Part shown: positions 4,701-39,391 of the stretch, piece by piece | Layout of the letters: each line of letters begins with the position of its first letter | How positions within the stretch are numbered: the stretch's first letter is position 1 | Sequence record: OR896824.1 | Source: Escherichia phage SmurfNell | Reading direction: 5' to 3' (one strand) | DNA: 64,000 bases | Made by a program: the position numbers and the translations under genes | The notes under the pieces: generated by a model | Told to the model about the DNA's origin: nothing | The model's input: the letters and a program-made list of their open reading frames with translations, nothing else | Databases searched by the model: none

Positions 4701-5468
4701 TTATTCAGCAGCCGCAGCTTTTGCATCCAGTTTAGCACGCTTAGCGGCACCATCATAGTCCTTAGCAACCAGACCACGACGAGACAGCATAGATTTAACA
4801 CCGCGCTCAGACTTACCAGTTTTCTCAGCGATCTCAGCAACAGTCATGTTAGCCAGATCCAGACCTTCTAACAGATCTTCACGAGTTTTAGCACTTGAAG
4901 TTTCCTGTACCGGCATAGCAGCGATACGACCTTCACGAAGCAGACTCAGAGCTTTACCACGGATCTGCTTAATATTGCGACCGAAGTGAGCAGCGATAGC
5001 TTCAATAGTAGCACCAGCAACAACCTGATTAACGAAATCAGTTTCTTCGTCAGGAGTGAAGGAACGAACAGCAGCAGCTTTTTCGGTTGGCTTAACAGAA
5101 GCAGTCATTTCCAGACTCAGGATCTTACCCTGTACCTGCTTAGCACCGAACTGACCACCAGCTACAGCAGCAGCGATTTCAGCGTAAGTATACTGACCAG
5201 CATGAGCGTTCAGGAAATCAACCAGTTCAGCTTCCTGCTCAGGAGTCCACGGGGATTTCTGTACTTCGTTAGCTTTCTGTACTTCGAAACCTTCTTTACG
5301 CAGCTTAGATCCAACAGAGCGAGCGGTAACGTCTTTACCAGTCTCGGTAGCCAGTTCAGCAGCGATAGCAGCTACTTGTTCTTGAGAGATTACAGCAACA
5401 CCCAGAGCAGTGGCTTTTGCTTTCAGAGACTCGGTTACACCTTCTACGTTCCAGTTCAGTTTAGACAT
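4701..5468 (-). CDS. Ala-rich putative DNA-binding protein with three HTH-like repeats
   Basis: 255-aa ORF with three repeated HTH-like modules (YAEIAAAVAGG, IEAIAAHFGRN, VAEIAEKTGKS); codon usage resembles highly expressed E. coli genes. Confidence 0.6.
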   Translation of the reverse strand: MSKLNWNVEGVTESLKAKATALGVAVISQEQVAAIAAELATETGKDVTARSVGSKLRKEGFEVQKANEVQKSPWTPEQEAELVDFLNAHAGQYTYAEIAAAVAGGQFGAKQVQGKILSLEMTASVKPTEKAAAVRSFTPDEETDFVNQVVAGATIEAIAAHFGRNIKQIRGKALSLLREGRIAAMPVQETSSAKTREDLLEGLDLANMTVAEIAEKTGKSERGVKSMLSRRGLVAKDYDGAAKRAKLDAKAAAAE

Positions 5469-6243
5469 TATTATTTTTCTCCAATAGTTCTTTAATCGAC
5501 AGGATTTCTATCCCATTCGTTTCGGCTTTCTTATAAGATGAGGAAGAACGTTTTGATTCATCCTCACAGATTAGGTATTTGACGTCTTTGGTAACGGACT
5601 TCTTAACCGTATATCCTAGACTTTCTAAATAGTTTGTTGCATCCGTTCGATTTGCAAAATCTTGCAAAGATCCGGTAATACAGACCGTGATTCCATTTGG
5701 CTGGGCAACTAAATCATCTGTAATGATGATATCCGCTTTAGCACCTCGAATACCCGTTGAGAATTTCCACGGTAATTCAATAACATCCTTGCCTTGTGGG
5801 GAATTTAGCCAGGTTTTGTAATTTTCTCCAGCCTTGCCGTCAGCCTTCACATCGTGGAAGCTAGTGCAATTTTGGGACAGTTTCTTTGCTGCAACCTCTC
5901 CAATAAGAGGAATTCCTAAAGAACCGAGAACTGAACCAAAGTCAATGTCTCCGCGAACCTTAGTATTTAACTCGCTAATCAATTTAGCGGCAACCTTGCT
6001 ACCCACAGCTCCGACCAAATCTTCTTCGGTCAGGTAAAACAGTTCTGAGATCTTAGTCAGCTCCAGCTTCTCAATAGTTTTCGGGCCAAAGCCCTTTAAC
6101 TTCATTTTTGTGCAGAAGTTCTCGATTAACTTACTTGATTGCGCTGGACAGTTGGACTTATTCCTACAGAATAATTGCCCGTTGACAAGATCTAGCTTAG
6201 AACCACAAGAGGGACATTGTGTTGGAATTTCGATTTTCATCAA
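5461..6243 (-). CDS. ligB: NAD-dependent DNA ligase, C-terminal subunit (Zn finger, HhH, BRCT)
   Basis: CPSCGSKLDLVNGQLFCRNKSNCPAQ zinc finger and BRCT-like C-terminus typical of the LigA C-terminal half; own promoter and RBS upstream. Confidence 0.75.
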   Translation of the reverse strand: MMKIEIPTQCPSCGSKLDLVNGQLFCRNKSNCPAQSSKLIENFCTKMKLKGFGPKTIEKLELTKISELFYLTEEDLVGAVGSKVAAKLISELNTKVRGDIDFGSVLGSLGIPLIGEVAAKKLSQNCTSFHDVKADGKAGENYKTWLNSPQGKDVIELPWKFSTGIRGAKADIIITDDLVAQPNGITVCITGSLQDFANRTDATNYLESLGYTVKKSVTKDVKYLICEDESKRSSSSYKKAETNGIEILSIKELLEKNNNV

Positions 6244-6270
6244 ATTTCTTCCTTATCAATTTATATAAAT

Positions 6271-6299
6271 ATTATAGCAAGTATTTAAGCATTTAGCAA
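6271..6299 (-). promoter_or_regulatory. T5-type sigma70 promoter upstream of ligB (minus strand)
   Basis: Reverse complement reads TTGCTA-17 nt-TATAAT; lies in the gap between ligA and ligB. Confidence 0.6.
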
Positions 6300-6442
6300 C
6301 TACAATTTTAACTAACTTTGCTTACCCTCGCCATAACTTTCTATCCCTCAACTGAATGATAATAGTATATACCTAAGCGGCGAAAATGTCAATAACCACT
6401 TTATAATTCCGACATGGTAAACGGGTAGCAAAGGGTTACGAA

Positions 6443-7414
6443 TTAGTCGTATACTCGCTCTACTATACAAGGGATTACACCACCAGCACGAATCACTCGA
6501 ATCTGGCAACCGATCTCTAAATCGAGAGCGTTAATATAATCAACGTTATTAAGAGTTGCTTTAACAATTGTGGCATCATCAATAATCACCGGCTCGAAAT
6601 AACCAACTGGAGTTACTTTACCAGAAGCCCCTACTTGCCATTCAACTTTAACAAGTGTGGTAATTTCGCCTTCTTCATCCTCTTTAATAGCAAATGCACC
6701 ACGAGGAAATTTATTAGTCCAACCTTCGCGATAGAATTTGTTGTTGTCATTAATACGAACAACTTTACCATCCGTCGGAATCCACTTAAAGAAGGAACGC
6801 ACGTTAACAACTGTTAAGAAGTTCTCATTCTCTAACCAAAGCATATCTTTTAAATAGGCTTCTGTAATACCGACTGTTTCCGCTGAACACTGGATACCAT
6901 ATGCAACGAAGATTAACCCACCTTCACCAATACGTTGCATGAAATCATCACTGTCTTTCAGGTTAATAGCACCAGAAGCGTAGTTACGCTTGTTCTCTAC
7001 TTCTTTAGTAATGAGAACTTCACCAGTGATTTGAGTTGGTACTTTTTGGGAAATAGTTTTGGGGATGTTCAGCATTTTAACATTATTCGTTACATCATTC
7101 CCTAGAATACCGTTACCACGAGTTAACGCTTGAACAAATTCACCATTAATGTATAATAGAGAAATCGCACAACCATCTAACTTATCAGTTTCAACCTGAC
7201 CTAATGGATTAAACGGAGCTTTATCACCACGATCGTAATAGACTTTCTGTAAAGAATACATACGATACAAATGAGGAATATCACCTTTCGGCCCGATTTC
7301 TTCCTCTAACGGGAATCTTTTAATCAGACGATCATATTCTTCATCGGAAATAAGACTCATTCCCTGGTAGTACGCTTCTTGACAACGTTTGATAAAGTCT
7401 TTTACATTATTCAT
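6443..7414 (-). CDS. ligA: NAD-dependent DNA ligase, N-terminal adenylation/OB subunit
   Basis: KxDG adenylation motif (ETDKLDGCAIS) and N-terminal Ia-like region (YYQGMSLISDEEYD); encoded separately from the C-terminal half. Confidence 0.75.
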   Translation of the reverse strand: MNNVKDFIKRCQEAYYQGMSLISDEEYDRLIKRFPLEEEIGPKGDIPHLYRMYSLQKVYYDRGDKAPFNPLGQVETDKLDGCAISLLYINGEFVQALTRGNGILGNDVTNNVKMLNIPKTISQKVPTQITGEVLITKEVENKRNYASGAINLKDSDDFMQRIGEGGLIFVAYGIQCSAETVGITEAYLKDMLWLENENFLTVVNVRSFFKWIPTDGKVVRINDNNKFYREGWTNKFPRGAFAIKEDEEGEITTLVKVEWQVGASGKVTPVGYFEPVIIDDATIVKATLNNVDYINALDLEIGCQIRVIRAGGVIPCIVERVYD

Positions 7415-9855: not shown

Positions 9856-9886
9856 ATTTAAACTCCTCTCTCAAATTTATGAATCT

Positions 9887-9915: not shown

Positions 9916-9923
9916 ATAAATTT

Positions 9924-10611: not shown

Positions 10612-13384
10612 TTCTAGCCCCCAATTCAGCAAGAGCTTCCTCATGCATCTGACGTTCTTCATCTGTCATAAACTTAACTGGAATCGGCATACATTCGATC
10701 TTACAGTAAGTTCTGTACCAGTCCACAATCTTTTCCGTATCCAGATCTTTACCGATACCCATCATGCCAAGATACATACGAGCATATTTTGGGTTAGCGC
10801 TCTGACCTGTCTTAAGGAAGAAATCCTTCTTCTTATTCTTAAGAGCTTCGATAAACGGTTTGATTGTTACGTTTGAACACTTTTTAATATCTTCCCAGAA
10901 CATGTCGTGCATCTTATGGAAGAATGCAGCTCTATCGTTTGGTTTATCCTTGATATACTGTTCAACGTGTTCCACTGTTACATCTTTAATAGAATCCAGA
11001 TGATAATAGCGAACCAGAAGCAATTTAGCTTCATAGGCATCTGCATGACGTGGTGCGCAATATTCAGGAGTTGAGTGCAAAATAGCTTTGATTCGCTCTT
11101 CTGTATACTCTTTGCCTGCACCTTCGATAGTTCCCCAGCTTTCACTGAAAATATCAATAGTTGCACCCTGATCAAGCAGATAATAACGCAAAGTACTAGT
11201 ATAGTTTCTGGACTCCAGTTCACGACGACGTGCATACAGCTGCTGAGCTAACTCAACCCAACCCTCATCAATATTATATTGCTCGGAACCCGCAGAAAAT
11301 CCACTCGTAGATTTATCAATAAAATAATAAATGTTCTGAGCACCACGGTCGCGCCTGATTGCTTGGAAACGCATGTTTGGCGCTTGGTTTGAGGTTCTAG
11401 TGATAACAAATACGTTATCAAAATAGTTAAAGTCAACGCCACTCGTTACAGATGGACTACATAACAAACAATCAATCTGTTGATCAATTAGCTCATTAGT
11501 AGTGTAATCCAGAATACGTCGGATATCTACATCAGACGTAGAGTTTGAGTGAATTTCTTTAACTAACGCACCAGTGTTACGACGTAACGCCATCCCCTTT
11601 TCATTCAGTTCATCTGGCCCACAGTCAGATACTAGGATTGATTTCTCCCCCATCTCTAGTGAAGTCTGGAGTGCGACCCAAATACTGGATTCATCAGGGA
11701 ACTCATATGCATGAGCTTTTGCCAGCATTTTACGGTGATGATTATAGAACGCGACCGGTTTATCAAAATCAATCAAAGAACCATAGGCTTCAATCGTTTC
11801 TGCACTGATATCACCATCAGATAAGATAACCGTTTTTGCAGTAATAAGAATATCGCGAAGAACCTGAATACATTCACGACGGTTTTTAACAACCGGGGCG
11901 AATAACAGATCATTCATTACTGCGTCACATTCATCAATAAAGATCGTATCAATCTGACCCACAAAGCTCTTGAACTTATGGATAGAGTGAATAGTTGAAG
12001 ACATACGATCAATAGCACCACGTTTGAAGTTCAGCATATCAACTGACTTATCATACTGACCAGCACCGAATTTCTTCGCGTTTGAAGATACAAGTGCCCT
12101 AGTATTCGTGATTGCAATAAAGTTTCCTGGAAGAACACCTGCATCTAGCCACTTAGTTACTGCTGTGGTTTTACCTGTACCAAGACTTGCCTTAACAAAT
12201 GTTAAATGTCCTTTTGGGGGTACAATGTTAATCTTCAAGTATGGAACTTCTGGCGGTGAATCTGTGTCCAGACGCTTTAGTGGTACACCTTTTAAGTTGG
12301 GTGGAATCTCACGTTTGGAGTTATTCACAAAGGCTTTTAGAGCCTGCTTACGACCGTTATTAAAGTAATCTTGAATATTACGACTATTATCTTTAGTTGC
12401 AATATATTCAGATAAAGCTGGTTTAATCTCACGTTCTAACCACGTAAAGTCAACACCATCTTCTAACGCTCTGTGATAAAGTTTTGGGATAATACGCAGG
12501 TACACCCCATCCTCAGCTTCTTCTAGTTCGCTGATGGTTTCTTCCACTTTATCAGATGCAGCCTTCTTGCCTTTAATTTGGTCAAGTAAGGAGTAGAATT
12601 CTTCTTTAAACTCACCTCTAGTTGTTTCAAAGTCAACTAGGTTATTGGGTAGATTCACTTTCGAACCCTTAACATACACAAGACGTGGTTTATTCTCCGC
12701 TTTAAACGGATCGACTATACCATCATCAAATAAGGGATCTGCGAAATAGTGAAGCTGAACAGAAGAATAATAAGCTAAGTCAGCAATATCAAAGCCATAC
12801 TTTTGCTTACTACTGTCATTGATGGATGTAAATAAGAATTTTAATTGCCCCTGCGTTACCTTGACATTAGATTCTAGCATTAAGTGCATTCGGATACCTG
12901 GTTTTAATCCAGCCGAAGACGATGCATGAGCAATAAACCCTGCATCAAGAGGAAACATATCCTCACTAATACTATTCAACATCTTAATAATATGACGTGC
13001 CATGCCAACAAGATTAAACTTGTCATAGCCACCAGTATCTACAATACCATCCACGTCCATAGCAATAATATGACTAGGATTGGATACGTTAAAGTTTCCC
13101 CTGGTACGACGCACATTATCTTTTGGAGCTAAACATTTACCACGAATAGCTACAATATGCGGGTCTTTGGTAAGACGACGCATGATAGGTAACATTTCAG
13201 CAAGGTTTTGCGGGTCAAGTTCTTCAAGTACATCAAATTTGAAGGGCATGGAAGCTGGTTTACCTTCTGGATGCTCTTTAGAGAATCGCTTTGCAAAGGT
13301 GTAATCTTCCACTTTGATCTCTTTCCAGATGCCAGTGGCTTTATCTCTGGAAAATCCTGCGTGACCTTGTAGGATTGAGAACAC
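10595..13384 (-). CDS. putative replication origin-binding / helicase-like protein (929 aa from GTG 13384)
   Basis: Walker A LGTGKTT and Walker B FIDECD in the central region; GTG start at 13384 has an AGGAG RBS 8 nt upstream, while the ORF-track ATG at 13507 adds an implausible Cys-rich N-terminus. Confidence 0.65.
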   Translation of the reverse strand: MFSILQGHAGFSRDKATGIWKEIKVEDYTFAKRFSKEHPEGKPASMPFKFDVLEELDPQNLAEMLPIMRRLTKDPHIVAIRGKCLAPKDNVRRTRGNFNVSNPSHIIAMDVDGIVDTGGYDKFNLVGMARHIIKMLNSISEDMFPLDAGFIAHASSSAGLKPGIRMHLMLESNVKVTQGQLKFLFTSINDSSKQKYGFDIADLAYYSSVQLHYFADPLFDDGIVDPFKAENKPRLVYVKGSKVNLPNNLVDFETTRGEFKEEFYSLLDQIKGKKAASDKVEETISELEEAEDGVYLRIIPKLYHRALEDGVDFTWLEREIKPALSEYIATKDNSRNIQDYFNNGRKQALKAFVNNSKREIPPNLKGVPLKRLDTDSPPEVPYLKINIVPPKGHLTFVKASLGTGKTTAVTKWLDAGVLPGNFIAITNTRALVSSNAKKFGAGQYDKSVDMLNFKRGAIDRMSSTIHSIHKFKSFVGQIDTIFIDECDAVMNDLLFAPVVKNRRECIQVLRDILITAKTVILSDGDISAETIEAYGSLIDFDKPVAFYNHHRKMLAKAHAYEFPDESSIWVALQTSLEMGEKSILVSDCGPDELNEKGMALRRNTGALVKEIHSNSTSDVDIRRILDYTTNELIDQQIDCLLCSPSVTSGVDFNYFDNVFVITRTSNQAPNMRFQAIRRDRGAQNIYYFIDKSTSGFSAGSEQYNIDEGWVELAQQLYARRRELESRNYTSTLRYYLLDQGATIDIFSESWGTIEGAGKEYTEERIKAILHSTPEYCAPRHADAYEAKLLLVRYYHLDSIKDVTVEHVEQYIKDKPNDRAAFFHKMHDMFWEDIKKCSNVTIKPFIEALKNKKKDFFLKTGQSANPKYARMYLGMMGIGKDLDTEKIVDWYRTYCKIECMPIPVKFMTDEERQMHEEALAELGARNDSEE

Positions 13385-15515: not shown

Positions 15516-15663
15516 ATTCTCCCTCCTTAATAAGGAACTCTTTCCATTCTGCTGTATCCTCATAGATAACGCAGAAATCATCACTCTTCCATGAGAAGTC
15601 ATCAGTAGCAAATTCGAAACGGTAGCACCAACTACCATCTGGCCATACTAAAAGATCACACAT
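15496..15663 (-). CDS. small acidic protein (about 55 aa)
   Basis: ATG at 15663 overlaps the Sir2 stop (ATGTGTGA arrangement). Confidence 0.35.
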   Translation of the reverse strand: MCDLLVWPDGSWCYRFEFATDDFSWKSDDFCVIYEDTAEWKEFLIKEGEYGEEDF

Positions 15664-16507
15664 GCTTTTCTGGGACATAAATATTTCCCTCCATAAAAGC
15701 TTCAACTTGATCAATAAAGTGTTTATTACCAAAAACTTCGGCAGCTCCAGCACGCCATACAGTAACACCACGTTTCTCATACTCAAGCTGTTCGTCATAA
15801 CGAACTTGTGGGTTAACAACCATCATCTTAGTTCCACGACATACAGCAGGAAATAATTCCCAGTTGAAGTTGATAACTTGGTTACTACAACCCACCACAA
15901 TAACCATGTCATTGCTAGTAAGAGTATCAAACAGGTTGATTTGACCCATGTACCACGGAGCTGTCTCACCAAAGAACACCACGTTTGGTTTTACCCATTC
16001 GTAATCTTCAGGGGCAATCGCAGTATACCCAACATCTTCGATGATTTGATTGCGACCCTGATGATAGATCACCTCTTTCAAGTACCCGTGAGCGTGAATG
16101 ATTTCATCACGAGGGATACCAGCACGTTCCAGAAGGTCATCAACGTTAGTAGTGAAGTTCTTCACGCTACCCGCATCATAACGCTGGAACCATTCTGCAA
16201 TTCGCAGATGGGCAATGTTAGGCTCAACAGTCTGTAGTTCCTGACGACGCATGTTGTAGAACTCATGAGTCTTGAGATACAGATCGTTACCATCTTCATC
16301 AATGCCAGGGAAACGAGCGCTGAAGTAGTTAGGATCATCTTCACCACAGAAGCGACGGAAGCCAGCTTCAAAGTTAGGCAAGCTACATACTTCCTCTAGA
16401 TCGTACTCATCCCACAAAGATTTTCCACTAGCAGTATCAGTACGGAAAGCACGAACACCACTATCTACACTCAAACCTGCACCACTAACAACAATTAGTC
16501 TACGCAT
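15656..16507 (-). CDS. Sir2-family (sirtuin-like) NAD-dependent protein
   Basis: Sirtuin signature GAGLSVDSGVRAFR near the N-terminus and TNVDDLLERAG...HG central motif. Confidence 0.7.
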   Translation of the reverse strand: MRRLIVVSGAGLSVDSGVRAFRTDTASGKSLWDEYDLEEVCSLPNFEAGFRRFCGEDDPNYFSARFPGIDEDGNDLYLKTHEFYNMRRQELQTVEPNIAHLRIAEWFQRYDAGSVKNFTTNVDDLLERAGIPRDEIIHAHGYLKEVIYHQGRNQIIEDVGYTAIAPEDYEWVKPNVVFFGETAPWYMGQINLFDTLTSNDMVIVVGCSNQVINFNWELFPAVCRGTKMMVVNPQVRYDEQLEYEKRGVTVWRAGAAEVFGNKHFIDQVEAFMEGNIYVPEKHV

Positions 16508-33049: not shown

Positions 33050-33078
33050 TTGCTAAACGCTTCAAAATTCTGTATAAT
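33050..33078 (+). promoter_or_regulatory. T5-type sigma70 promoter driving the ORF-free 33.1-33.9 kb region and tRNA-Arg
   Basis: TTGCTA-17-TGTATAATAG plus ATTCATAAATTAGAGAACAG leader; no ORF for about 950 nt downstream. Confidence 0.65.
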
Positions 33079-33084
33079 AGATTC

Positions 33085-33937
33085 ATAAATTAGAGAACAG
33101 CGAGCCGATTACGCTGAGTGAGTTTAGTGATTCCTACTAGGATAGCTACTCCACTGAATAGAGTCGGTGAGTTGGAGACTAGTAAGTACTCTGAGAGAGG
33201 CTACGAGCTAACGCTTATTGCTATTGATAGGGAACTGAAAATCTGCGGAAAACTCGGGAGCTGTCCCGAAATCTCGTAAACTCTTCTCTAGTTTATGTTA
33301 GTGGGGTGTCGAACTGACTTATGTGATAACACTGCCGTCCTAGTATAAACGGTAATATCAAACCGTAACTGGTGGAAGATGCAGGTTCGAATCCTGCGGT
33401 CGGAAAGAATCAGATAACTCGGGCTTATACCGGATAAGCATTCGCTGCTGTAGTACATACTATGACGGTTCAGGAGGTACGCCTCCTGATCAGTATTAGG
33501 TTAGAATCGAAACAGCTAAACCACGAGGAAACCTGACGGCCTCAACCAAACTCGGAACTCGGGATCACTGCCTAGTGTGTACCCCGTTTAACCTGAGACT
33601 AGGCATCCAGCTTCGCATCGAAAATCGGAGGTGCGATTCTAACAGACCGCGTGAATATGAGAGTGGGAAACGCTGACATGAGAGATGTCACTAATGGTGC
33701 CCAATAGTACAGGTAATTCGCGATAATTCCTGTTGAGCGGCAGCAGTAGGCTGGGAGTCATGACCTAAGCCTAACCGAGTTCTTCACATACGGAGAACAT
33801 AACCACAAAGTCACCCTGACTTAAACTGGAAGATATTGTCTGACGGAAGGGCTGCAGAGCTTAATCTGAGGGGGCTGACCCTACCTACCGTCGGGTATCT
33901 TTAAGAGCTTTTATAAGAGTTCTTAAAAATACCTAAA
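33085..33937 (+). other. ORF-free transcribed region (putative ncRNA / tRNA precursor leader) containing a degenerate tRNA-like element
   Basis: About 850 nt downstream of promoter 33050-33078 with no ORF of 60 aa or more on either strand; ends at tRNA-Arg(TCT); contains several hairpins (e.g. CAGGAGG-TACG-CCTCCTG at 33487-33504). Confidence 0.35.
33346..33417 (+). other. degenerate tRNA-like element (canonical T-arm, 8-nt putative anticodon loop, imperfect acceptor stem)
   Basis: GCAGG-TTCGAAT-CCTGC T-arm and ACGGT/ACCGT hairpin with 8-nt loop; acceptor pairing has a U-U mismatch and no CCA. Confidence 0.25.
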
Positions 33938-34012
33938 CGGGGTGTAGTCTAAGGGATAGGCAGGAGTCTTCTAAATTCCTTTATGCAGGTTCGAATCCTG
34001 TCACCTCGGCCA
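33938..34012 (+). tRNA. tRNA-Arg (anticodon TCT)
   Basis: Hand-folded cloverleaf: acceptor CGGGGTG/CACCTCG, anticodon loop CTTCTAA, T-loop TTCGAAT, encoded CCA. Confidence 0.7.
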
Positions 34013-34038
34013 ATTTTATTAACTGCTAGGAAAATAAA

Positions 34039-34239
34039 GTGAAAACACGATATATAGTAAAAGTAGTAGGTGAACATTCACAAGTAAATACCACCGATGT
34101 TACAGCGCTAGCATTTGAAGTAGTCTCCGGTATAGTCATATTTCATAACGGAGATATCAAAGCTCCTGAATTTGCTGTGGATGCTAGCCTGTTTATTTCT
34201 GCAACTAAAGTAACTGTAGTAGCTAACCCTTCTAAATAA
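34039..34239 (+). CDS. hypothetical protein (66 aa, GTG start)
   Basis: ORF immediately after tRNA-Arg with AGGAAA RBS. Confidence 0.4.
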   Translation: MKTRYIVKVVGEHSQVNTTDVTALAFEVVSGIVIFHNGDIKAPEFAVDASLFISATKVTVVANPSK

Positions 34240-34250
34240 TAAGGAAATAT

Positions 34251-35195
34251 ATGTTTACTAAAAACACTAAAGAACTGACTTCCGATCAAAAAGTAATTCG
34301 TACTATTAAACGTTGGGGCGTTGGTGCTGTAGTTGGTCTTGGCGCTCTTATTCTGGCTCTCAATTCCTATACAGTTGTTCAGGACGGTACGGTTAAAACT
34401 CAGACTTTCCTGGGTAAAGTTAGTCCTAATCCTGTATTGCCGGGGTTCCATATTGTCAACCCATTCGCCTCTTTTGATACTTTTAGTACGAAAGATATTT
34501 CTATGAAACTGGATAAACTTCAGGTTCCTAGCCAGGATAAGTTTAAGTCCACTGTTGACATTACCGTTATGTTGCAGTTTGATGGTGCTAAAGCTCCTAT
34601 GAACCGTGTTAACGCAGGTACTCAGGATCAAGCTCTGAACAAGTACGTTGAAGAGAAGATGCTATCTACGATTCGTGAGTTTGGTAAGTCTGTACCAAAA
34701 GCACAAGATCTGTTCGACGCTAAGATTCAGGCTCAACTGCAAACTGCTATTCAGCAAGAAGTAGAAGAGTACGCGCGTCCTTATGGTTACACGGTTAAGC
34801 AAGTATTCCTTCAGGATATTACTCTGCCACCTGTAATCATGGAACAGGTACAAAACACAAAAGTTCGTGAAGAACAAGTTAACGCCGCTAAAGCTGAATT
34901 GGCTCGTGTTGAACAAGAAGCACAGCAGAAAGTTAAGCAAGCTGAAGCTGATCGTTCTGCTCGTGAAAACATGGCAGTAGCTAACGAACGTGACGCAGAT
35001 GCTAAACTGTACGCAGCTAAGAAAGAAGCTGAAGCTAACGCCGCGCTGCAACGTACCATTACTCCTGAAATGATTCGTTGGAAGCAGCTGGAAGTTGAAA
35101 TGCTTCGTGCTGAAAAATACCAAGGTGGTGTACCGCAGACTATTGTTGGTACTGGCTACGATGGTCAAATGATCATGGATATGCGTAACAAGTAA
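34251..35195 (+). CDS. SPFH/band-7 (prohibitin/HflKC-like) membrane protein
   Basis: N-terminal transmembrane helix (WGVGAVVGLGALILAL) followed by an SPFH-like domain and a long coiled coil; terminator at 35219-35260. Confidence 0.65.
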   Translation: MFTKNTKELTSDQKVIRTIKRWGVGAVVGLGALILALNSYTVVQDGTVKTQTFLGKVSPNPVLPGFHIVNPFASFDTFSTKDISMKLDKLQVPSQDKFKSTVDITVMLQFDGAKAPMNRVNAGTQDQALNKYVEEKMLSTIREFGKSVPKAQDLFDAKIQAQLQTAIQQEVEEYARPYGYTVKQVFLQDITLPPVIMEQVQNTKVREEQVNAAKAELARVEQEAQQKVKQAEADRSARENMAVANERDADAKLYAAKKEAEANAALQRTITPEMIRWKQLEVEMLRAEKYQGGVPQTIVGTGYDGQMIMDMRNK

Positions 35196-35218
35196 TAGTT
35201 ACACGTAATCTTCGAACC

Positions 35219-35260
35219 AAGCCCGCGTTTCCTCCGAGAGCGCGGGCTTTTCTGTATTTA
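35219..35260 (+). terminator. rho-independent terminator downstream of the SPFH gene
   Basis: AAGCCCGCG...CGCGGGCTT stem followed by TTCTGTATTT. Confidence 0.6.
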
Positions 35261-35407
35261 AGGCAAAAGAAAAGCCCATAAGTTATTCAACTAAGGTCTT
35301 TAGTATTTAATTCTTTAATTCTTTAGAATCATATACTATTATTGTAGCAACAACGTGCTACCACTAAATGCCTTGAGATTTTTCCACTAAAAAGTTTAAA
35401 AATTCGA

Positions 35408-35436
35408 TTGCTTGAACGCTAAATTCTCTGTATAAT
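35408..35436 (+). promoter_or_regulatory. T5-type sigma70 promoter upstream of nadR-pnuC
   Basis: TTGCTT-17-TGTATAATAT plus ATTTATAAATTTGAGAGAGGAATCAAAT leader. Confidence 0.7.
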
Positions 35437-35466
35437 ATATTTATAAATTTGAGAGAGGAATCAAAT

Positions 35467-36522
35467 ATGATTAAGACTGGTCTAGTAATTGGTAAGTTCG
35501 CGCCATTAACGCGTGGTCATATTAACCTAATAAACACAGCAGCAACTATGTGTGAACGAGTTATTGTTGTAGTTAGTCATGATAATCGTTGGCTGGATAA
35601 GCAGAACACACGTGATCAGGAAGTATTACAGTTAAAGAATCGACTTCGTTGGTTAGAACAAACTTACGCGGATATTGAGCACATTTCGGTAGAGTACATT
35701 ATTGAAGATGATATTCCTGAATATCCGAATGGTTGGCCGGAATATGCTAGAATCCTTAATGAAAATTACGGACATTTGCCTGAGATCACCGTTTTCTCTA
35801 GCGAACTAGACTATGATGCAGAATATAAGAAATATCTGCCGAAGTTTGGTCATTATATTGTAGATTCTGATCGGACTCGTGTTCCAATCTCAGCTACAAT
35901 GATTCGTAATGATCTTATGAAGTATTGGGAGTTTCTTCCTAGCGTAGTTCGTAAAGATTACGTGCGTAAGGTTGTAATCATTGGGACTGAAAGCTCGGGA
36001 AAGACTACTTTAACAAAATACCTTGCGAAGCTATACAACACTTCGTGGGTAGAAGAATATGGCCGAACGTATTGTGAAGTTGATCTAGTTGGTAACGAAA
36101 ATCTACTTATCAGTGAAGATTACAGTAAAATTGCGTTCAGACACAAAGAGCTAGAGTTTGAGGCAGAACGTACTGCAAATAAGATCATGTTTGTAGACAC
36201 AAATGCTTTTATTACTGAGTTCTACCACAGACTTTATGAACATCGTAAGAATCCTGTGGTTACAGCAATTGCAAAAGAAGAACATTACGATTTAGTAATT
36301 GTTCTAGCGCCTACTGTTAAGTGGGTAGATGATGGTTTACGTATTAACTCCGATCGTTCAATTACTTCTGAACTGTTCGAGCAGATGAAGAAAGAATTTC
36401 CAAATCAGTTCCCTGAAGGGCGTACTGTTTACATCGACTCCCCGGACTACAAAGTTCGTATGGACGAAGCAGTAAACGCAGTAGACTGGCTGATTCATCA
36501 CTTTAACGTTGGAGAGTTTTAA
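35467..36522 (+). CDS. nadR: NadR-like bifunctional NMN adenylyltransferase / ribosylnicotinamide kinase
   Basis: Cytidylyltransferase (H/T)xGH motif region (GKFAPLTRGHINLI) followed by a P-loop kinase domain (VVIIGTESSGKTTL); start 35467 after GAGAGAGGAA RBS. Confidence 0.75.
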   Translation: MIKTGLVIGKFAPLTRGHINLINTAATMCERVIVVVSHDNRWLDKQNTRDQEVLQLKNRLRWLEQTYADIEHISVEYIIEDDIPEYPNGWPEYARILNENYGHLPEITVFSSELDYDAEYKKYLPKFGHYIVDSDRTRVPISATMIRNDLMKYWEFLPSVVRKDYVRKVVIIGTESSGKTTLTKYLAKLYNTSWVEEYGRTYCEVDLVGNENLLISEDYSKIAFRHKELEFEAERTANKIMFVDTNAFITEFYHRLYEHRKNPVVTAIAKEEHYDLVIVLAPTVKWVDDGLRINSDRSITSELFEQMKKEFPNQFPEGRTVYIDSPDYKVRMDEAVNAVDWLIHHFNVGEF

Positions 36523-36523
36523 T

Positions 36524-37201
36524 ATGACTAACTATCTTGTAAATGACTTTAAAAACTGGAAACCTTTGGAATATCTGTGGCTGTTTATAGCAGTCGCCTT
36601 TATTAGTTTAGCAAACTATAATGGTACAGCTCTAGATTGGGCTACTGCAATAACCAATGTGGTTTGTGTTATTCTGGTTGCAAAAGGACGTGTTTCCAAC
36701 TATATTTGGGGCTTAGTGGGTGTTCTTACATATGGTATTACAGCTTTAAACGCAGATCTTTATGGTAACGCTGCACTAAACCTGCTATACTACGTTCCTA
36801 TGCAGTTTTATGGAATGTACTTATGGCATAAAAATAAGCCAAGTAATCTGCCAGATGTTCCAACTAAGTTTCTGACTAAAGCCCAAGCTCTGCTGACTCT
36901 AGGGATTCTAGCAGTAGCCACGTTAGGGTATGGTAGTTTCTTAGCTACTACAGCTGATCCATTCCCAATGCTCGATGCATTTACTGCGGTTGGTAGTGTG
37001 ATCGCTATGTGGCTTATGGTTAAGCAGTATGCCGAGCAGTGGCTGATCTGGATTGCTATTAACATTGGTACTGTGTACATTTGGCTTGTAACTGCTCAAT
37101 CTACAGGTGCATCTTATGCAATCCTAGCAATGTGGCTAGTATTCTTAGGTAACTCTATTATGGGAGCCTATAAAGGATACTTTGTACGCGTTAACAAATA
37201 A
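36524..37201 (+). CDS. pnuC: PnuC-like nicotinamide riboside transporter
   Basis: About 225-aa polytopic membrane protein with Trp/Tyr-rich motifs (NYIWGLVGVLTYG, LYYVPMQFYGMYLW) typical of PnuC; overlaps nadR stop. Confidence 0.7.
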   Translation: MTNYLVNDFKNWKPLEYLWLFIAVAFISLANYNGTALDWATAITNVVCVILVAKGRVSNYIWGLVGVLTYGITALNADLYGNAALNLLYYVPMQFYGMYLWHKNKPSNLPDVPTKFLTKAQALLTLGILAVATLGYGSFLATTADPFPMLDAFTAVGSVIAMWLMVKQYAEQWLIWIAINIGTVYIWLVTAQSTGASYAILAMWLVFLGNSIMGAYKGYFVRVNK

Positions 37202-37207
37202 AGTAGT

Positions 37208-37236
37208 TATAGCCCTCGCTTAGAGGGCTATTATAC
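37208..37236 (+). terminator. putative terminator downstream of pnuC
   Basis: TAGCCCTC-GCTTA-GAGGGCTA hairpin followed by a weak T-run. Confidence 0.4.
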
Positions 37237-37248
37237 AGAAATTTTCAC

Positions 37249-37277
37249 TTGCTTAATATAGAAAATTTCTGTATAAT
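37249..37277 (+). promoter_or_regulatory. T5-type sigma70 promoter
   Basis: TTGCTT-17-TGTATAATAT plus ATTTATAAATTCGAGAGAGGAATCAAAC leader. Confidence 0.7.
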
Positions 37278-37307
37278 ATATTTATAAATTCGAGAGAGGA
37301 ATCAAAC

Positions 37308-37604
37308 ATGAAACGCATTGTACTTGCATTGACTCTAGTATCTACTTCTGTATTTGCTGCTCCGCAACAGGAACTTTGTCAAGTTCAGGTTTGTAATAAG
37401 CTAGAACGATTTACTCTAAACATTTGGTCCCATATTAAAGATAATATGGGTGAACAGTGTTTTGATATTGTTCTGCCAAAAGAACAGGCTATTCCTGGTG
37501 CTGTTCTTAGCTCAGAATCACGTTGGTGGCAGGGTTCTTCTATCAATCCAACTAAGAAGTCAGTGACACGTATCAAACAAGTATATCAGTGCAAGGTTCA
37601 GTAA
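37308..37604 (+). CDS. secreted hypothetical protein (98 aa)
   Basis: Signal peptide MKRIVLALTLVSTSVFAAP; downstream of promoter 37249-37277. Confidence 0.55.
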   Translation: MKRIVLALTLVSTSVFAAPQQELCQVQVCNKLERFTLNIWSHIKDNMGEQCFDIVLPKEQAIPGAVLSSESRWWQGSSINPTKKSVTRIKQVYQCKVQ

Positions 37605-37612
37605 AATTTCAC

Positions 37613-37641
37613 TTGCTTAATGTCGAAATTTTCTGTATAAT
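37613..37641 (+). promoter_or_regulatory. T5-type sigma70 promoter driving the first tRNA block
   Basis: TTGCTT-17-TGTATAATAT; tRNA-Ser starts 15 nt after the -10. Confidence 0.65.
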
Positions 37642-37655
37642 ATATTCATAAATTC

Positions 37656-37749
37656 GGAAGATTAACCCTAATGGTAAGGGAGCTGTTTGCTAAACAGCCA
37701 GTAGCTGTGGAGACACGGTGTGCCAGTTCGAATCTGGCATCTTCCTCCA
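37656..37749 (+). tRNA. tRNA-Ser (anticodon GCT), type II
   Basis: Acceptor GGAAGAT/ATCTTCC, anticodon stem-loop GCTGT-TTGCTAA-ACAGC, long variable arm, T-arm GCCAG-TTCGAAT-CTGGC, CCA. Confidence 0.7.
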
Positions 37750-37754
37750 GATTT

Positions 37755-37832
37755 GGTTCTCAAGCTCATTTGGTATGAGCCGTCGCCTCATAAGCGAAAG
37801 GTAGGTAGGTTCGAATCCTCCGGGAGCCACCA
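37755..37832 (+). tRNA. tRNA with CAT anticodon (Met or Ile2)
   Basis: Acceptor GGTTCTC/GGGAGCC with G-U pairs, D-stem GCTC/GAGC, anticodon loop CTCATAA, CCA; one mismatch in T-stem. Confidence 0.55.
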
Positions 37833-37849
37833 ATTAATTAGGAGACTAT

Positions 37850-38035
37850 ATGTCACGCTTTCGAGAAATTGCTCAAGAGCTAGAAGAATGTGCCTGCCCA
37901 AAATGCTTCGGAGCAGGTGAATGGAACGATGCTGAACCTGGTGATACATGGTATAATACATACGTTTGTACACATTGTAATAGTTCTGGTATTAATCCTG
38001 AATGCGGTATTTCTCTAGATATTGAGCGAGGCTAA
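37850..38035 (+). CDS. small Cys-rich zinc-ribbon protein (61 aa)
   Basis: CxxC...CxxC (CACPKCFGAG...CTHCNSSG); GGAG RBS. Confidence 0.5.
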   Translation: MSRFREIAQELEECACPKCFGAGEWNDAEPGDTWYNTYVCTHCNSSGINPECGISLDIERG

Positions 38036-38369
38036 GATGGATATCTACACTACACCAGCAGTAAACCTGATTGGCTCTTGCCTTGTGCATTTCCGCTTCT
38101 TCCAAACGGATGATAGCAAAGAGGAGTATACCTATCCTCTGATGGATTTTCAGATTGAGGACTTCTTCCGTGAAGTGCGTAATATCTCTGAGAACTTCTA
38201 TTATGGCATGGATAAGGAAGACTTTGACATTAAGTTCCCTATAATCTCTCGTTATTTCCTAGAGCAGTCCGATGCTCGGTTTGAGAAGATTGAACACATG
38301 GAAGTAGCCTGGGCTATCCAGTTCGAAATTACTGGCTTTGCTCGATACATTCAAGGTTACGAACTATGA
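38022..38369 (+). CDS. hypothetical protein (115 aa)
   Basis: ORF overlapping the upstream gene. Confidence 0.5.
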   Translation: MSEAKMDIYTTPAVNLIGSCLVHFRFFQTDDSKEEYTYPLMDFQIEDFFREVRNISENFYYGMDKEDFDIKFPIISRYFLEQSDARFEKIEHMEVAWAIQFEITGFARYIQGYEL

Positions 38370-38461
38370 AATTAAAAGATTATTATATTGGTTGGTTTGT
38401 AGGACTAATAGTAGGATTTTCACTGGGCTACAACTTGTATCAACTGATAAACTGATTACAT

Positions 38462-38538
38462 GGGGGTGTAATCGAATTGGCATAGGTACTGGACTTAAAA
38501 TTCAGGTTTTGTGGGTTCGAATCCCACCACCCCTACCA
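38462..38538 (+). tRNA. tRNA with TAA anticodon (Leu-type) but short variable loop
   Basis: Acceptor GGGGGTG/CACCCCT, anticodon stem-loop CTGGA-CTTAAAA-TTCAG, T-arm GTGGG-TTCGAAT-CCCAC, A73, CCA; D-arm pairing weak. Confidence 0.5.
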
Positions 38539-38554
38539 AATTAAGGAAATAAAA

Positions 38555-38677
38555 ATGAAAGCTATTAAGAAAGCACTACGTAAATTTATGTACTGTCGTT
38601 TTCATAGCATCAAGTCTTCGACTAATGGTACGACTTATGATCGCTATGATCCTAAGTTTGGCTTACATTCTAAATAA
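38555..38677 (+). CDS. hypothetical small protein (40 aa)
   Basis: Short ORF with AAGGAAAT RBS right after tRNA 38462-38538. Confidence 0.3.
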   Translation: MKAIKKALRKFMYCRFHSIKSSTNGTTYDRYDPKFGLHSK

Positions 38678-38690
38678 CTGGAGAAAACAA

Positions 38691-38897
38691 ATGGCTAATC
38701 CTGAAATTACAGCACAACGCTTTATGCTGAAAGGAATTATTGCTGAAGCAGGCATGACAGAAGAAGTTGCAGATTTTCAAAAGCAATTCCTCAATATTCT
38801 CACTCAAGCCAAAGAGCTAGGAGAGAAAGAACATGACGCAGCTGTTATGGCAATCACGTTGGTTGGGCTTGATCTGGCAGAAGAATCAGGAGTTTAA
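38691..38897 (+). CDS. hypothetical protein (68 aa)
   Basis: ATG 38691 with GGAG RBS; the ORF-track start 38625 gives an unlikely hydrophobic extension. Confidence 0.45.
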   Translation: MANPEITAQRFMLKGIIAEAGMTEEVADFQKQFLNILTQAKELGEKEHDAAVMAITLVGLDLAEESGV

Positions 38898-38926
38898 CTC
38901 CTCCAAGCAGAAATTTTAAAAATGTA

Positions 38927-38956
38927 CTTGCTTTTTACTTAAGATTTCTGCTATAA
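38927..38956 (+). promoter_or_regulatory. T5-type sigma70 promoter
   Basis: TTGCTT-18-TGCTATAATAG plus TTATATAAATTGATGAAGGAG leader. Confidence 0.6.
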
Positions 38957-38987
38957 TAGTTATATAAATTGATGAAGGAGTTAACGA

Positions 38988-39263
38988 ATGTCAAAACGTG
39001 TTACTGCAACTGGTGTTGAAAGTGCTGTTTGTAAATCCTGGGGTGGCTGGGAAGGTGAGATTGAATGGCTTTATTTCTACGACGTAGAACTTCTGCCGGA
39101 AGTCAAAGCTAAATGTGTGGAAGCCGGTATGGCTCCTGATGCAAAGGCTGATATCGAAATCACCATGCCTAAGCTAGAAGGTCGTGTAATTACGCTCAAT
39201 GATGATTATGAAGAAGTGTTCGAGCTTCCCTTCAAACTGAGTGTCACTCCTAGCTTCGAGTAA
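38988..39263 (+). CDS. hypothetical protein (91 aa)
   Basis: Downstream of promoter 38927-38956; GAAGGAG RBS. Confidence 0.55.
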   Translation: MSKRVTATGVESAVCKSWGGWEGEIEWLYFYDVELLPEVKAKCVEAGMAPDAKADIEITMPKLEGRVITLNDDYEEVFELPFKLSVTPSFE

Positions 39264-39299
39264 CTGATATAGCACTGAGCAAGTTCTTTAAAATTTGAC

Positions 39300-39328
39300 T
39301 TGCTCAGTCCTTCAAATCTTGATATAAT
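39300..39328 (+). promoter_or_regulatory. T5-type sigma70 promoter upstream of the tRNA-Tyr block
   Basis: TTGACTTGCTC ... GATATAATAG; -35 either TTGACT or TTGCTC at 17-nt spacing. Confidence 0.55.
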
Positions 39329-39391
39329 AGTTATCTAATTTGGAAACATATTTAAAAGTGTTTAAACTAGTATTTGAATATTTCTAAATAT

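What the first reader, a model, noticed from the sequence alone, without database searches (positions are those of the whole stretch)
35408..37236. Phage-encoded NAD salvage operon: NadR-like NMN adenylyltransferase/kinase plus PnuC-like transporter
A strong early promoter drives a two-gene operon whose products look like NadR (cytidylyltransferase domain plus P-loop ribosylnicotinamide kinase) and the nicotinamide riboside importer PnuC. Together they would let the infected cell import nicotinamide riboside and rebuild NAD+. Several abortive-infection systems act by depleting NAD+ (Sir2, TIR, SEFIR effectors), so this operon is a candidate counter-defense module that differs in enzyme content from the NAD reconstitution pathways I am aware of.
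Basis: partly seen in the sequence, partly recalled or inferred. Interest (0 to 1): 0.78.

Follow-up and report, generated by a model that had tools for sequence, protein, structure and literature searches.

The report
Known phage NadR–PnuC NAD salvage operon
A T5-like phage carries two early-expressed genes, a vitamin B3 (nicotinamide riboside) importer and the enzyme that turns it into NAD+. The pair is real, but it is already annotated in hundreds of phages and was already proposed in print as an untested way to resist NAD-destroying bacterial defences.

Summary
35467-36522 encodes a 351-aa NadR that has the NMN adenylyltransferase and ribosylnicotinamide kinase domains but lacks the DNA-binding HTH. 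36524-37201 encodes a 225-aa PnuC. The two genes are 1 nt apart. They sit behind a promoter and leader that is 72/75 nt identical to the annotated T5 early promoter P15a, between an upstream terminator and a downstream hairpin.

The window is an Epseptimavirus (T5-like), and this 2.2 kb is 100% identical to Escherichia phage SuperGirl/Bas29, where both genes are already annotated. About 200 T5-like records carry the full operon, and about 790 of 50,697 phage records carry each gene.

Osterman et al. 2024 explicitly name the NadR+PnuC operon of BASEL phages as a hypothesised, unexamined NAD+ reconstitution pathway. A protein 348/351 identical is in the PDB (9x6f/9x6h).

So the biochemical reading is well supported, and the counter-defence role is plausible but untested in any text I could search. 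Caveats:
- NADase defences yield ADPR and nicotinamide, not NR.
- T5 itself lacks the operon.
- The phage has its own NAD consumers (a split NAD-dependent ligase and a Sir2-like protein).

Verdict: real, ordinary, already known.

The parts
35219..35249 (+). Upstream intrinsic terminator after the SPFH/Band 7 gene. It isolates the nadR-pnuC unit from upstream transcription.
   Evidence: 12-bp stem with 7 GC pairs, followed by TTTTCTGTATTT. Fold energy -19.9 kcal/mol.
35388..35466 (+). T5 P15a-type early promoter and leader. A-rich upstream tract, -35 TTGCTT at 35408-35413, 17-nt spacer, -10 TATAAT at 35431-35436, conserved ATATTTATAAATT, and RBS GAGAGAGG ending 7 nt before the ATG.
   Evidence: 72/75 nt identical to the annotated 'promoter P15a' of the T5 RefSeq record. 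Similarity runs through the ATG and stops there. Belongs to a repeated promoter family.
35467..36522 (+). nadR: a 351-aa bifunctional NMN adenylyltransferase / ribosylnicotinamide kinase without the HTH DNA-binding domain.
   Evidence: Family matches. Motifs: GKFAPLTRGH 9-18, ISATMIR 141-147, Walker A GTESSGKT 173-180, Walker B FVDTN 242-246, DDGLR 288-292. Key residues are invariant across 40 homologs. 348/351 identical to PDB 9x6f; E = 5e-55 to H. influenzae NadR 1lw7. AF2 pLDDT 93.1. Foldseek TM 0.84 to NadR 8x7f.
36524..37201 (+). pnuC: a 225-aa PnuC-family nicotinamide riboside transporter. Its ATG lies 1 nt after the nadR stop, so it is probably translationally coupled.
   Evidence: PF04973 148.8 bits, TIGR01528 121.2 bits, phrog_1880. 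E = 1.4e-32 to the Neisseria mucosa PnuC structure 4qtn over residues 9-215, with the QW..WI..NI and KG..SNY..GL stretches conserved. Junction sequence.
37209..37231 (+). Hairpin after pnuC (9-bp stem AUAGCCCUC/GAGGGCUAU, 5-nt loop). It is a likely 3' end or stabiliser of the transcript. It has no canonical U-run.
   Evidence: RNAfold -18.0 kcal/mol. Not called a terminator by the scan.
5461..7414 (-). Context, not part of the operon: a split NAD+-dependent DNA ligase. Subunit B is 5461-6243 and subunit A is 6443-7414. It is a phage-encoded NAD+ consumer whose by-product is NMN, the substrate of the NadR NMNAT domain.
   Evidence: Pfam DNA_ligase_aden and DNA_ligase_OB in subunit A; HHH_2 and BRCT in subunit B. 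Annotated as NAD-dependent DNA ligase A and B in SuperGirl.
15656..16507 (-). Context, not part of the operon: a phage Sir2-family protein (283 aa), a second potential NAD+ consumer.
   Evidence: Pfam SIR2 78.4 bits. Annotated 'Sir2-like protein' in SuperGirl.

Best explanation
This is a self-contained early transcription unit of a T5-like (Epseptimavirus) phage.

A P15a-type early promoter and leader drive nadR and pnuC. PnuC lets nicotinamide riboside (NR) cross the inner membrane. The RNK domain of the phage NadR phosphorylates NR to NMN, which traps it. The NMNAT domain then adenylates NMN to NAD+. The net reaction is NR + 2 ATP -> NAD+.

The phage NadR lacks the HTH domain, so it cannot act as the NAD-responsive repressor. 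It is a constitutive enzyme made from phage DNA. Inference from the known T5 life cycle: the host chromosome is shut off and degraded early, so the host's own NadR-regulated nadA-pnuC response cannot be induced.

The result would be a phage-controlled top-up of the NAD+ pool. This would do two things:
- Feed the phage's own NAD+-dependent enzymes. The split LigA-type ligase releases NMN, which the NMNAT domain can convert directly back to NAD+. The phage also has a Sir2-like protein.
- Buffer the infected cell against NAD+-depleting abortive-infection systems whenever NR is available.

Shown here: gene identity, domain content, motif conservation, operon structure, promoter homology and distribution. 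Inferred: enzyme activities (by homology to characterised NadR and PnuC), early timing, and both physiological benefits.

My estimates: about 0.85-0.9 that the pair makes NAD+ from NR; about 0.4-0.5 that it measurably counters NAD+-depleting defence under some condition. The confidence given below (0.8) is for the biochemical pathway and operon structure, not for the counter-defence purpose.
For: - Family assignment above curated cut-offs for both proteins.
- Catalytic motifs are present. G9, K10, F11, G17, H18, A143, R147, G173, E175, G178, K179 and D244 are invariant in 40 homologs of 44-86% identity; S142 and T144 are nearly invariant.
- The Walker A Lys, Walker B Asp and lid are the defining RNK elements according to PMC7221760.
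- The NadR is 99% identical to a solved 'nicotinamide-nucleotide adenylyltransferase' (9x6f/9x6h) and homologous over its full length to H. influenzae NadR.
- A confident AF2 model (pLDDT 93.1) superposes on NadR structures with TM 0.74-0.84.
- PnuC is homologous to 4qtn at E = 1.4e-32.
- The genes are 1 nt apart, and their GC content (0.39 and 0.40) equals that of the phage (0.40).
- The promoter and leader match T5 P15a at 72/75 nt.
- NadR and PnuC occur in near-equal numbers of phage records (791 and 784), across Vibrio, Salmonella, Klebsiella, Escherichia, Bacillus, Lactobacillus, Prevotella and Erwinia phages.
- The same hypothesis has been published for this operon.
- The window itself encodes an NAD-dependent ligase and a Sir2 protein.
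Against: - No activity, expression or phenotype data are available here.
- Sir2, TIR and SEFIR NADases yield ADPR and nicotinamide, and neither is a NadR substrate. The operon therefore cannot recycle the breakdown products the way NARP1 and NARP2 do, and it depends on an NR supply.
- The E. coli host already has NadR, which makes NAD+ from NMN.
- T5 itself, HildyBeyeler and STWB21 lack the operon at this slot, so it is dispensable for the T5 life cycle and for the ligase.
- TIGR01526 (NadR NMNAT equivalog domain) scores 273 bits, below its 341-bit cut-off.
- The second Asp of the enterobacterial and Haemophilus 'DTD' is Asn (DTN) in this clade. The consequence is unknown.
Confidence: 0.8

Rival explanations
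1. The operon is purely an auxiliary metabolic module, not counter-defence. It keeps NAD+ available for the phage's own NAD+-dependent DNA ligase (T5-type DNA carries nicks and replicates massively) and for its Sir2-like protein. It would do this mainly by re-adenylating ligase-derived NMN, with NR import as a supplement.
For: - The window encodes a split NAD-dependent ligase and a Sir2-family protein (annotation).
- NAD-dependent ligase homologs occur in 1189 phage records whose genus profile overlaps that of NadR: Vibrio 381 vs 355, Salmonella 272 vs 174, Klebsiella 86 vs 47, Escherichia 134 vs 37, Prevotella 15 vs 15.
- NMN is the ligase by-product and the direct NMNAT substrate (established biochemistry).
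Against: - T5 and other T5-like phages have the ligase but not nadR-pnuC.
- The Enterococcus, Bacillus and Lactobacillus phage groups among the NadR carriers do not appear among the top genera for the ligase.
- The genus-level overlap is confounded by heavy sampling of Demerecviridae. I could not compute it record by record.
Confidence: 0.3
2. The operon is a dedicated counter-defence module, effectively a third phage NAD+ replenishment pathway. Its selective value comes mainly from surviving Sir2-, TIR- or SEFIR-type NAD+ depletion.
For: - Published as a hypothesis for exactly this operon and for phage NadR in general.
- It occupies a variable accessory-gene slot. In other T5-like phages that slot holds unrelated cargo: the T5.076 Toprim gene, and the T5.077-079 cassette of unknown function. 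This is the pattern expected of host-range or anti-defence genes.
- It is expressed from an early promoter.
- NARP1 and NARP2 set a precedent that restoring NAD+ defeats several defence systems.
Against: - It is untested.
- Its substrate, NR, is not a product of the NADases, so efficacy would depend on the environment.
- NAD+ synthesis from imported NR may be too slow to outrun an activated NADase.
- I found no paper reporting a phenotype.
Confidence: 0.4
3. The proteins have drifted to another substrate or role. For example, the Pnu-family transporter might carry a different vitamin, or NadR might act as a regulator or as a kinase of another nucleoside.
For: - The Pnu family includes transporters of other vitamins (my own knowledge).
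- The TIGR01526 score is below its cut-off.
- The Walker B region reads DTN instead of DTD.
- The enterobacterial PnuC subfamily model PRK15397 scores only 69 bits against a 335-bit cut-off.
Against: - The PnuC equivalog model TIGR01528 is passed threefold (121 vs 42 bits).
- Linkage of PnuC with NadR is conserved across distant phage groups.
- No HTH is present, so a regulator role is excluded.
- The NMNAT and RNK motifs are invariant across homologs.
- The PDB depositors name the 99%-identical protein an NMN adenylyltransferase.
Confidence: 0.05

Closest known systems
The NadR + PnuC operon of BASEL-collection phages noted by Osterman et al. 2024, 'Phages reconstitute NAD+ to counter bacterial immunity' (bioRxiv 10.1101/2024.02.11.579819, Discussion and Suppl. 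Fig. 3B)
   Same: It is the same operon. The 2.2-kb stretch is 100% identical to BASEL phage Bas29/SuperGirl. The proposed function is also the same: an NAD+ reconstitution route from nicotinamide riboside.
   Different: Nothing substantive. [quoted passage not shown] The figure is not held, so I could not confirm that Bas29 itself is among the phages shown in Suppl. Fig. 3B.
PDB 9x6f / 9x6h, 'Nicotinamide-nucleotide adenylyltransferase' (357-aa construct)
   Same: 348 of 351 residues are identical to the window's NadR over its full length.
   Different: There are three substitutions (V109I, I215T, R260S) plus a 6-residue tag. The entries are absent from the PDB copy that ends at releases of 2026-04-08, so they appear to be later releases. 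I found no associated paper, so I do not know what was shown.
Bacterial NadR/PnuC nicotinamide riboside salvage (H. influenzae NadR 1lw7; L. lactis NadR 6gye/6gyf/6gzo; N. mucosa PnuC 4qtn)
   Same: The two-domain NMNAT + RNK architecture, the motifs and the fold match. The PnuC family and its conserved stretches match. HTH-less NadR also exists in bacteria, for example L. lactis and a 57%-identical chromosomal homolog, P0032.
   Different: This copy is phage-borne and sits behind a T5 early promoter. It lacks the HTH found in the E. coli, Salmonella and H. influenzae proteins. Both proteins are distant from the enterobacterial host versions: PRK15397 scores 69 bits against a 335-bit cut-off, and NadR is about 30-32% identical to solved NadRs in the structural alignment.
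NARP1 (Adps + Namat) and NARP2 (Nampt + NMNAT) phage NAD+ reconstitution pathways
   Same: All are two-gene phage modules whose end product is NAD+. NARP2 shares the final NMN -> NAD+ adenylylation step.
   Different: NARP1 and NARP2 rebuild NAD+ from the products of defence NADases (ADPR and nicotinamide). NadR-PnuC uses imported NR and includes a membrane transporter. The operon contains no Adps, Namat or Nampt homolog. Matches to NadM-type models are far below cut-off (18 bits vs 449).
Phage T5 early promoter P15a and the variable slot between T5.080 and tRNA-Ser(GCU)
   Same: The promoter and leader are 72/75 nt identical, and the flanks are the same: the SPFH 'lipoprotein' gene on one side and tRNA-Ser(GCU) on the other.
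   Different: In T5, P15a drives T5.076 (a Toprim protein), and the slot also holds the opposite-strand T5.077-079 cassette. Here P15a drives nadR-pnuC. Sequence similarity ends right after the ATG.

Membership tests
NadR (bifunctional NMNAT / ribosylnicotinamide kinase) | N-terminal HIGH-superfamily nucleotidyltransferase domain with the (H/T)xGH and ISxTxxR motifs | tested here: met
   PF01467 at residues 7-147, 31.1 bits vs cut-off 21. GKFAPLTRGH 9-18 and ISATMIR 141-147 are present. G17, H18, A143 and R147 are invariant in 40 homologs, and S142 and T144 nearly so.
NadR (bifunctional NMNAT / ribosylnicotinamide kinase) | C-terminal P-loop RNK domain with Walker A Lys, Walker B Asp and a lid region | tested here: met
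   PF13521 AAA_28, 109.3 bits. GTESSGKT 173-180, FVDTN 242-246 and DDGLR...R 288-297 are present. K179 and D244 are invariant; R292 and R297 are nearly invariant. The defining features are as described in PMC7221760.
NadR (bifunctional NMNAT / ribosylnicotinamide kinase) | Score above curated family cut-offs | tested here: inconclusive
   PRK08099 (NadR equivalog) scores 255 bits against a 201-bit cut-off, which is met. TIGR01526 (nadR_NMN_Atrans equivalog domain) scores 273.4 against 341.15, which is not met.
NadR (bifunctional NMNAT / ribosylnicotinamide kinase) | Two-domain NadR fold | tested here: met
   AF2 pLDDT 93.1 and pTM 0.87. Foldseek TM 0.84 to 8x7f, 0.79 to 1lw7 and 0.73-0.76 to the L. 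lactis chains 6gye/6gyf/6gzo. 99% sequence identity to solved 9x6f.
Trifunctional enterobacterial NadR (repressor + enzymes) | N-terminal helix-turn-helix DNA-binding domain (about residues 1-60) | tested here: not met
   The alignment to PRK08099 starts at profile position 65 of 411, and protein residue 3 aligns there. There is no HTH Pfam hit. The protein is therefore an enzyme-only NadR, like that of L. lactis.
NadR (bifunctional NMNAT / ribosylnicotinamide kinase) | Catalysis of NR + ATP -> NMN and NMN + ATP -> NAD+ | not testable with these tools
   Needs enzyme assays. The only indirect evidence is the PDB depositors' name for the 99%-identical protein.
PnuC (nicotinamide riboside transporter, Pnu family) | Match to PF04973 and to the TIGR01528 equivalog above their cut-offs | tested here: met
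   148.8 bits vs 27.3, and 121.2 bits vs 42.45.
PnuC (nicotinamide riboside transporter, Pnu family) | Full-length homology to a structurally characterised PnuC, with an all-helical multi-pass membrane topology | tested here: met
   E = 1.4e-32 to 4qtn over residues 9-215. Hydropathy shows hydrophobic segments across the protein. Eight long helices appear in the AF2 secondary structure, but that model has low confidence (pLDDT 47), so no fold search was done.
Enterobacterial PnuC subfamily (PRK15397) | Score above the subfamily cut-off | tested here: not met
   69.4 bits vs 335. The phage PnuC is not a recent copy of the host's gene.
PnuC (nicotinamide riboside transporter, Pnu family) | Transport of nicotinamide riboside | not testable with these tools
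   Needs uptake assays in a delta-pnuC host.
Phage NAD+ reconstitution pathways NARP1 / NARP2 | Enzyme content: Adps + Namat (NARP1), or Nampt + NMNAT (NARP2) | tested here: not met
   The operon holds only NadR-type NMNAT/RNK and PnuC. NadM-type models score 17-18 bits against cut-offs of 397-449. I did not screen the rest of the window for NARP genes.
Phage NAD+ reconstitution pathways NARP1 / NARP2 | Restores NAD+ and rescues phage on hosts with NAD+-depleting defence | not testable with these tools
No report was found in the library. Osterman et al. say it was not examined.
T5 early promoters (P15a type) | Sequence identity to a promoter annotated in the T5 reference genome, with the -35 TTGCTT / 17 nt / TATAAT layout | tested here: met
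   72/75 identity to T5 P15a. TTGCT, TATAATA and the ATAAATT tract are invariant or nearly so among the 6 window copies. Promoter activity itself was not tested.

The most novel reading that the evidence does not exclude
The NadR-PnuC operon is a genuine third phage NAD+ replenishment pathway that works by import rather than by recycling. It would defeat Sir2-, TIR- or SEFIR-type NAD+ depletion only when NR is available. NR might come from the medium. It might come from NAD+ or NMN released by lysed neighbours and dephosphorylated in the periplasm. It might also be made from defence-released nicotinamide by host nucleoside phosphorylases; that last step rests on my recollection of E. coli biochemistry and was not checked. 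If so, counter-defence would depend on the environment, and the pathway would be immune to defences that destroy ADPR or nicotinamide to block NARP1.
Probability: 0.4. Interest if true: 0.5.

Novelty: already known. Interest (0 to 1): 0.25.

Why it matters
If the operon does protect T5-like phages from NAD+-depleting immunity, it would add an import-based route to the two recycling routes known (NARP1 and NARP2). Phage host range would then depend on vitamin B3 availability, which is relevant when choosing Epseptimavirus phages for Salmonella or E. coli biocontrol. The idea, the genes and a near-identical protein structure are already public. What remains is the experiment, not a discovery.

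Tried and rejected
1. I first assumed the whole window was SuperGirl and converted record coordinates with one offset. The translations were full of stops. The window is mosaic relative to SuperGirl: its first 24 kb is closest to Salmonella phage gmork at 98.6%. I relocated the ligase and Sir2 genes from the ORF list.

2. The generic promoter scan did not list the TTGCTT/17/TATAAT site and showed no excess over shuffles. I therefore based the promoter on homology to the annotated T5 P15a instead.

3. Single-sequence AF2 of PnuC gave pLDDT 47, which is unusable, so no fold search was run. I relied on sequence homology to 4qtn.

4. I tried to get the title and date of 9x6f through Foldseek against the PDB. 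The entry is not in that copy, which ends at releases of 2026-04-08. A full-text search for the PDB ids found nothing relevant.

5. Seven literature searches for an experimental test of phage NadR/PnuC as anti-defence returned only the Osterman hypothesis and genome-survey mentions. 'NARP3' is not a phage term in the library.

6. A regulator role for the phage NadR is rejected because it has no HTH.

7. Recent capture from the enterobacterial host is rejected. The enterobacterial PnuC subfamily model fails, the operon's GC content equals the phage's, and the closest named bacterial homolog is only 57% identical and is not linked to pnuC.
Full report
**What is in the sequence**

- 35467-36522 (+) encodes 351 aa, starting at an ATG preceded by GAGAGAGG.
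- 36524-37201 (+) encodes 225 aa. Its ATG lies one base after the upstream TAA (TAA-T-ATG).
- A canonical terminator lies upstream at 35219-35249 (12-bp stem followed by a T-run).
- A 9-bp GC-rich hairpin follows pnuC at 37209-37231 (-18 kcal/mol). It lacks a proper U-tract.

**Identity of the window**

The 2.2-kb stretch 35200-37400 is 100% identical to Escherichia phage SuperGirl (Bas29 of the BASEL collection; Demerecviridae, Epseptimavirus). There the same two CDSs are annotated 'putative nicotinamide-nucleotide adenylyltransferase' and 'nicotinamide mononucleotide transporter'.

The window as a whole is not SuperGirl. Its first 24 kb is closest to Salmonella phage gmork at 98.6%, and gene offsets differ. 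It is therefore a mosaic Epseptimavirus. A run of 30 tRNA genes and the gene content fit a T5-like early region.

**The proteins**

NadR:
- It has a cytidylyltransferase-like domain (residues 7-147) and an AAA_28 P-loop kinase domain (168-314).
- It passes the NCBIfam NadR equivalog PRK08099 (255 vs 201 bits). The alignment covers only profile positions 65-407 of 411, so the N-terminal HTH repressor domain is missing.
- It falls short of the TIGR01526 cut-off (273 vs 341 bits).
- Motifs GKFAPLTRGH, ISATMIR, Walker A GTESSGKT, Walker B FVDTN and DDGLR are present. The key residues are invariant or nearly invariant in 40 homologs of 44-86% identity.
- HTH-less NadR enzymes are known in bacteria, for example L. 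lactis, and Walker A, Walker B and the lid define the RNK site (PMC7221760).
- An AlphaFold model built on that alignment is confident (pLDDT 93.1). It superposes on solved NadRs: 8x7f at TM 0.84, 1lw7 at 0.79, and the L. lactis entries at 0.73-0.76.
- PDB entries 9x6f and 9x6h hold a protein 348/351 identical to this one. They are absent from a PDB copy ending at releases of 2026-04-08, so they appear to be very recent. I found no paper citing them.

PnuC:
- It passes PF04973 (148.8 bits) and the PnuC equivalog TIGR01528 (121 vs 42 bits).
- It aligns over residues 9-215 with the Neisseria mucosa PnuC structure 4qtn (E = 1.4e-32).
- It fails the enterobacterial PnuC subfamily model (69 vs 335 bits), so it is not a recent copy of the host gene.
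- The operon's GC content (0.39-0.40) equals the phage's (0.40).

**The promoter**

The site is TTGCTT (35408-35413), 17 nt, TATAAT (35431-35436). The generic scan does not list it and shows no excess of promoter-like sites over shuffles.

The real evidence is homology. Window 35388-35462 is 72/75 identical to the feature annotated 'promoter P15a' in the T5 RefSeq genome. Similarity continues through the RBS and the ATG and stops immediately after it. In T5 this promoter drives T5.076, a Toprim protein.

At least six copies of this promoter type lie between 33.0 and 39.4 kb. One, at 37249-37277, is 81% identical over 73 nt including the leader, and it drives the next gene. From memory, T5 early promoters of this design (the PN25/P26 class) are among the strongest known E. 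coli promoters. The strength of P15a itself was not checked.

**A variable slot**

The region between the SPFH/Band 7 gene and tRNA-Ser(GCU) holds different cargo in different T5-like phages:
- this window and about 200 other records carry nadR-pnuC;
- T5 carries T5.076 plus the opposite-strand T5.077-079 cassette;
- HildyBeyeler (Bas33) carries only the Toprim gene;
- the Epseptimavirus STWB21 carries T5.077/078 homologs (89% identity) in place of nadR-pnuC.

The operon is therefore an accessory cassette, dispensable for the T5 life cycle.

**Distribution**

tblastn finds NadR in 791 and PnuC in 784 of 50,697 phage records. They are spread over Vibrio, Salmonella, Klebsiella, Escherichia, Enterococcus, Bacillus, Lactobacillus, Prevotella (Lak) and Erwinia phages. 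PHROGs already has families for both, under 'moron, auxiliary metabolic gene and host takeover'.

**What is already published**

- Osterman et al. [quoted passage not shown] Their Suppl. Fig. [quoted passage not shown]
- Iyer et al. 2022 list NadR among phage NAD+-synthesis domains that counter NADase effectors.
- A 2024 survey of jumbo phages describes pnuC-nadR-nadM clusters.
- Seven searches found no experimental test.

**Mechanism and rivals**

The best-supported mechanism is this. PnuC admits NR. The RNK domain traps it as NMN. The NMNAT domain makes NAD+. The unit is expressed early from phage DNA and is free of NadR-type repression.

Two purposes are plausible and are not exclusive.

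First, the operon may supply the phage's own NAD+ consumers. The window encodes a split NAD-dependent DNA ligase (5461-6243 and 6443-7414, minus strand) and a Sir2-family protein (15656-16507, minus strand). Ligase turnover releases NMN, which the NMNAT domain can recycle directly. NAD-dependent ligase homologs occur in 1189 phage records with a genus profile that overlaps that of NadR. However, T5 has the ligase without the operon.

Second, the operon may buffer against NAD+-depleting defence. The main weakness of this reading is that Sir2- and TIR-type NADases produce ADPR and nicotinamide, not NR. Unlike NARP1 and NARP2, this module cannot rebuild NAD+ from the debris and needs an NR source.

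A regulator role is excluded because there is no HTH. Substrate drift is unlikely given the equivalog scores, the conserved linkage and the invariant motifs.

**Verdict**

The biochemical interpretation is well supported. The counter-defence role is plausible but untested. The novelty claim is not sustained: the genes are annotated, the hypothesis is published for this very phage collection, and a near-identical protein structure has been deposited. Interest is low to moderate and rests only on the experiment that remains to be done.

Noticed in passing
window 33050-39350 (copies near 33050, 35408, 37249, 37613, 38925 and 39300): A family of at least six near-identical T5-type early promoters: A-tract, TTGCT, 17 nt, TATAATA, then ATAAATT. 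They match T5's annotated P15a, P15b, P15c and P14a. The copies at 35398-35470 and 37239-37311 share 81% identity through the RBS and ATG. The promoter, leader and ATG thus act as a portable expression cassette, and cargo genes are swapped exactly at the start codon.
   Followed up: partly
window 35250-37650; L008 (T5) 9248-11721; L005 (STWB21) 2765-4196; L004 (HildyBeyeler) 5228-5746: The slot between the SPFH gene and tRNA-Ser(GCU) is a cargo-exchange hotspot. Some T5-like phages carry nadR-pnuC. Others carry a Toprim-domain protein (T5.076) and/or an opposite-strand cassette, T5.077-079. T5.077 is a Gly/Ala/Gln-rich protein of 321-330 aa (phrog_8119) and T5.078 is a 138-aa protein (phrog_7894). 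Neither of these two has a Pfam match or a known function.
   Followed up: partly
window 15656-16507 (-): The phage encodes a Sir2-family protein (283 aa; PF02146, 78 bits). A phage carrying both an NAD+-consuming sirtuin-like enzyme and an NAD+ salvage operon is worth a look in its own right. Its target and role are unknown to me.
   Followed up: no
window 5461-6243 (-) and 6443-7414 (-): An NAD+-dependent DNA ligase is split into two genes: A carries the adenylation and OB domains, and B carries HhH and BRCT. About 200 bp separates them. Homologs occur in 1189 phage records.
   Followed up: partly
window 37308-37604 (+): A 98-aa protein with an apparent signal peptide (MKRIVLALTLVSTSVFA/AP) and several cysteines; phrog_6894, function unknown. 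It is driven by its own copy of the P15a-like promoter and leader, immediately downstream of pnuC. It is retained in STWB21 even though nadR-pnuC is absent there.
   Followed up: no
window 34251-35195 (+): An SPFH/Band 7 membrane protein (314 aa; PF01145, 70 bits; T5.080 'lipoprotein' homolog) lies immediately upstream. It is conserved in T5-like phages with or without the operon.
   Followed up: no
window 1-24000 compared with 35200-37400: The window is mosaic relative to database phages. The nadR-pnuC stretch is 100% identical to E. coli phage SuperGirl, whereas the replication-gene region is closest to Salmonella phage gmork (98.6%) and is not collinear with SuperGirl. This indicates recombination among Epseptimaviruses of Salmonella and E. 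coli.
   Followed up: partly
NadR residue 246 (window 36202-36204): The Walker B region reads FVDTN. Asn246 is nearly invariant in this phage-rich clade, where H. influenzae NadR has DTD (and, from memory, E. coli NadR also). The effect on RNK catalysis is unknown.
   Followed up: no
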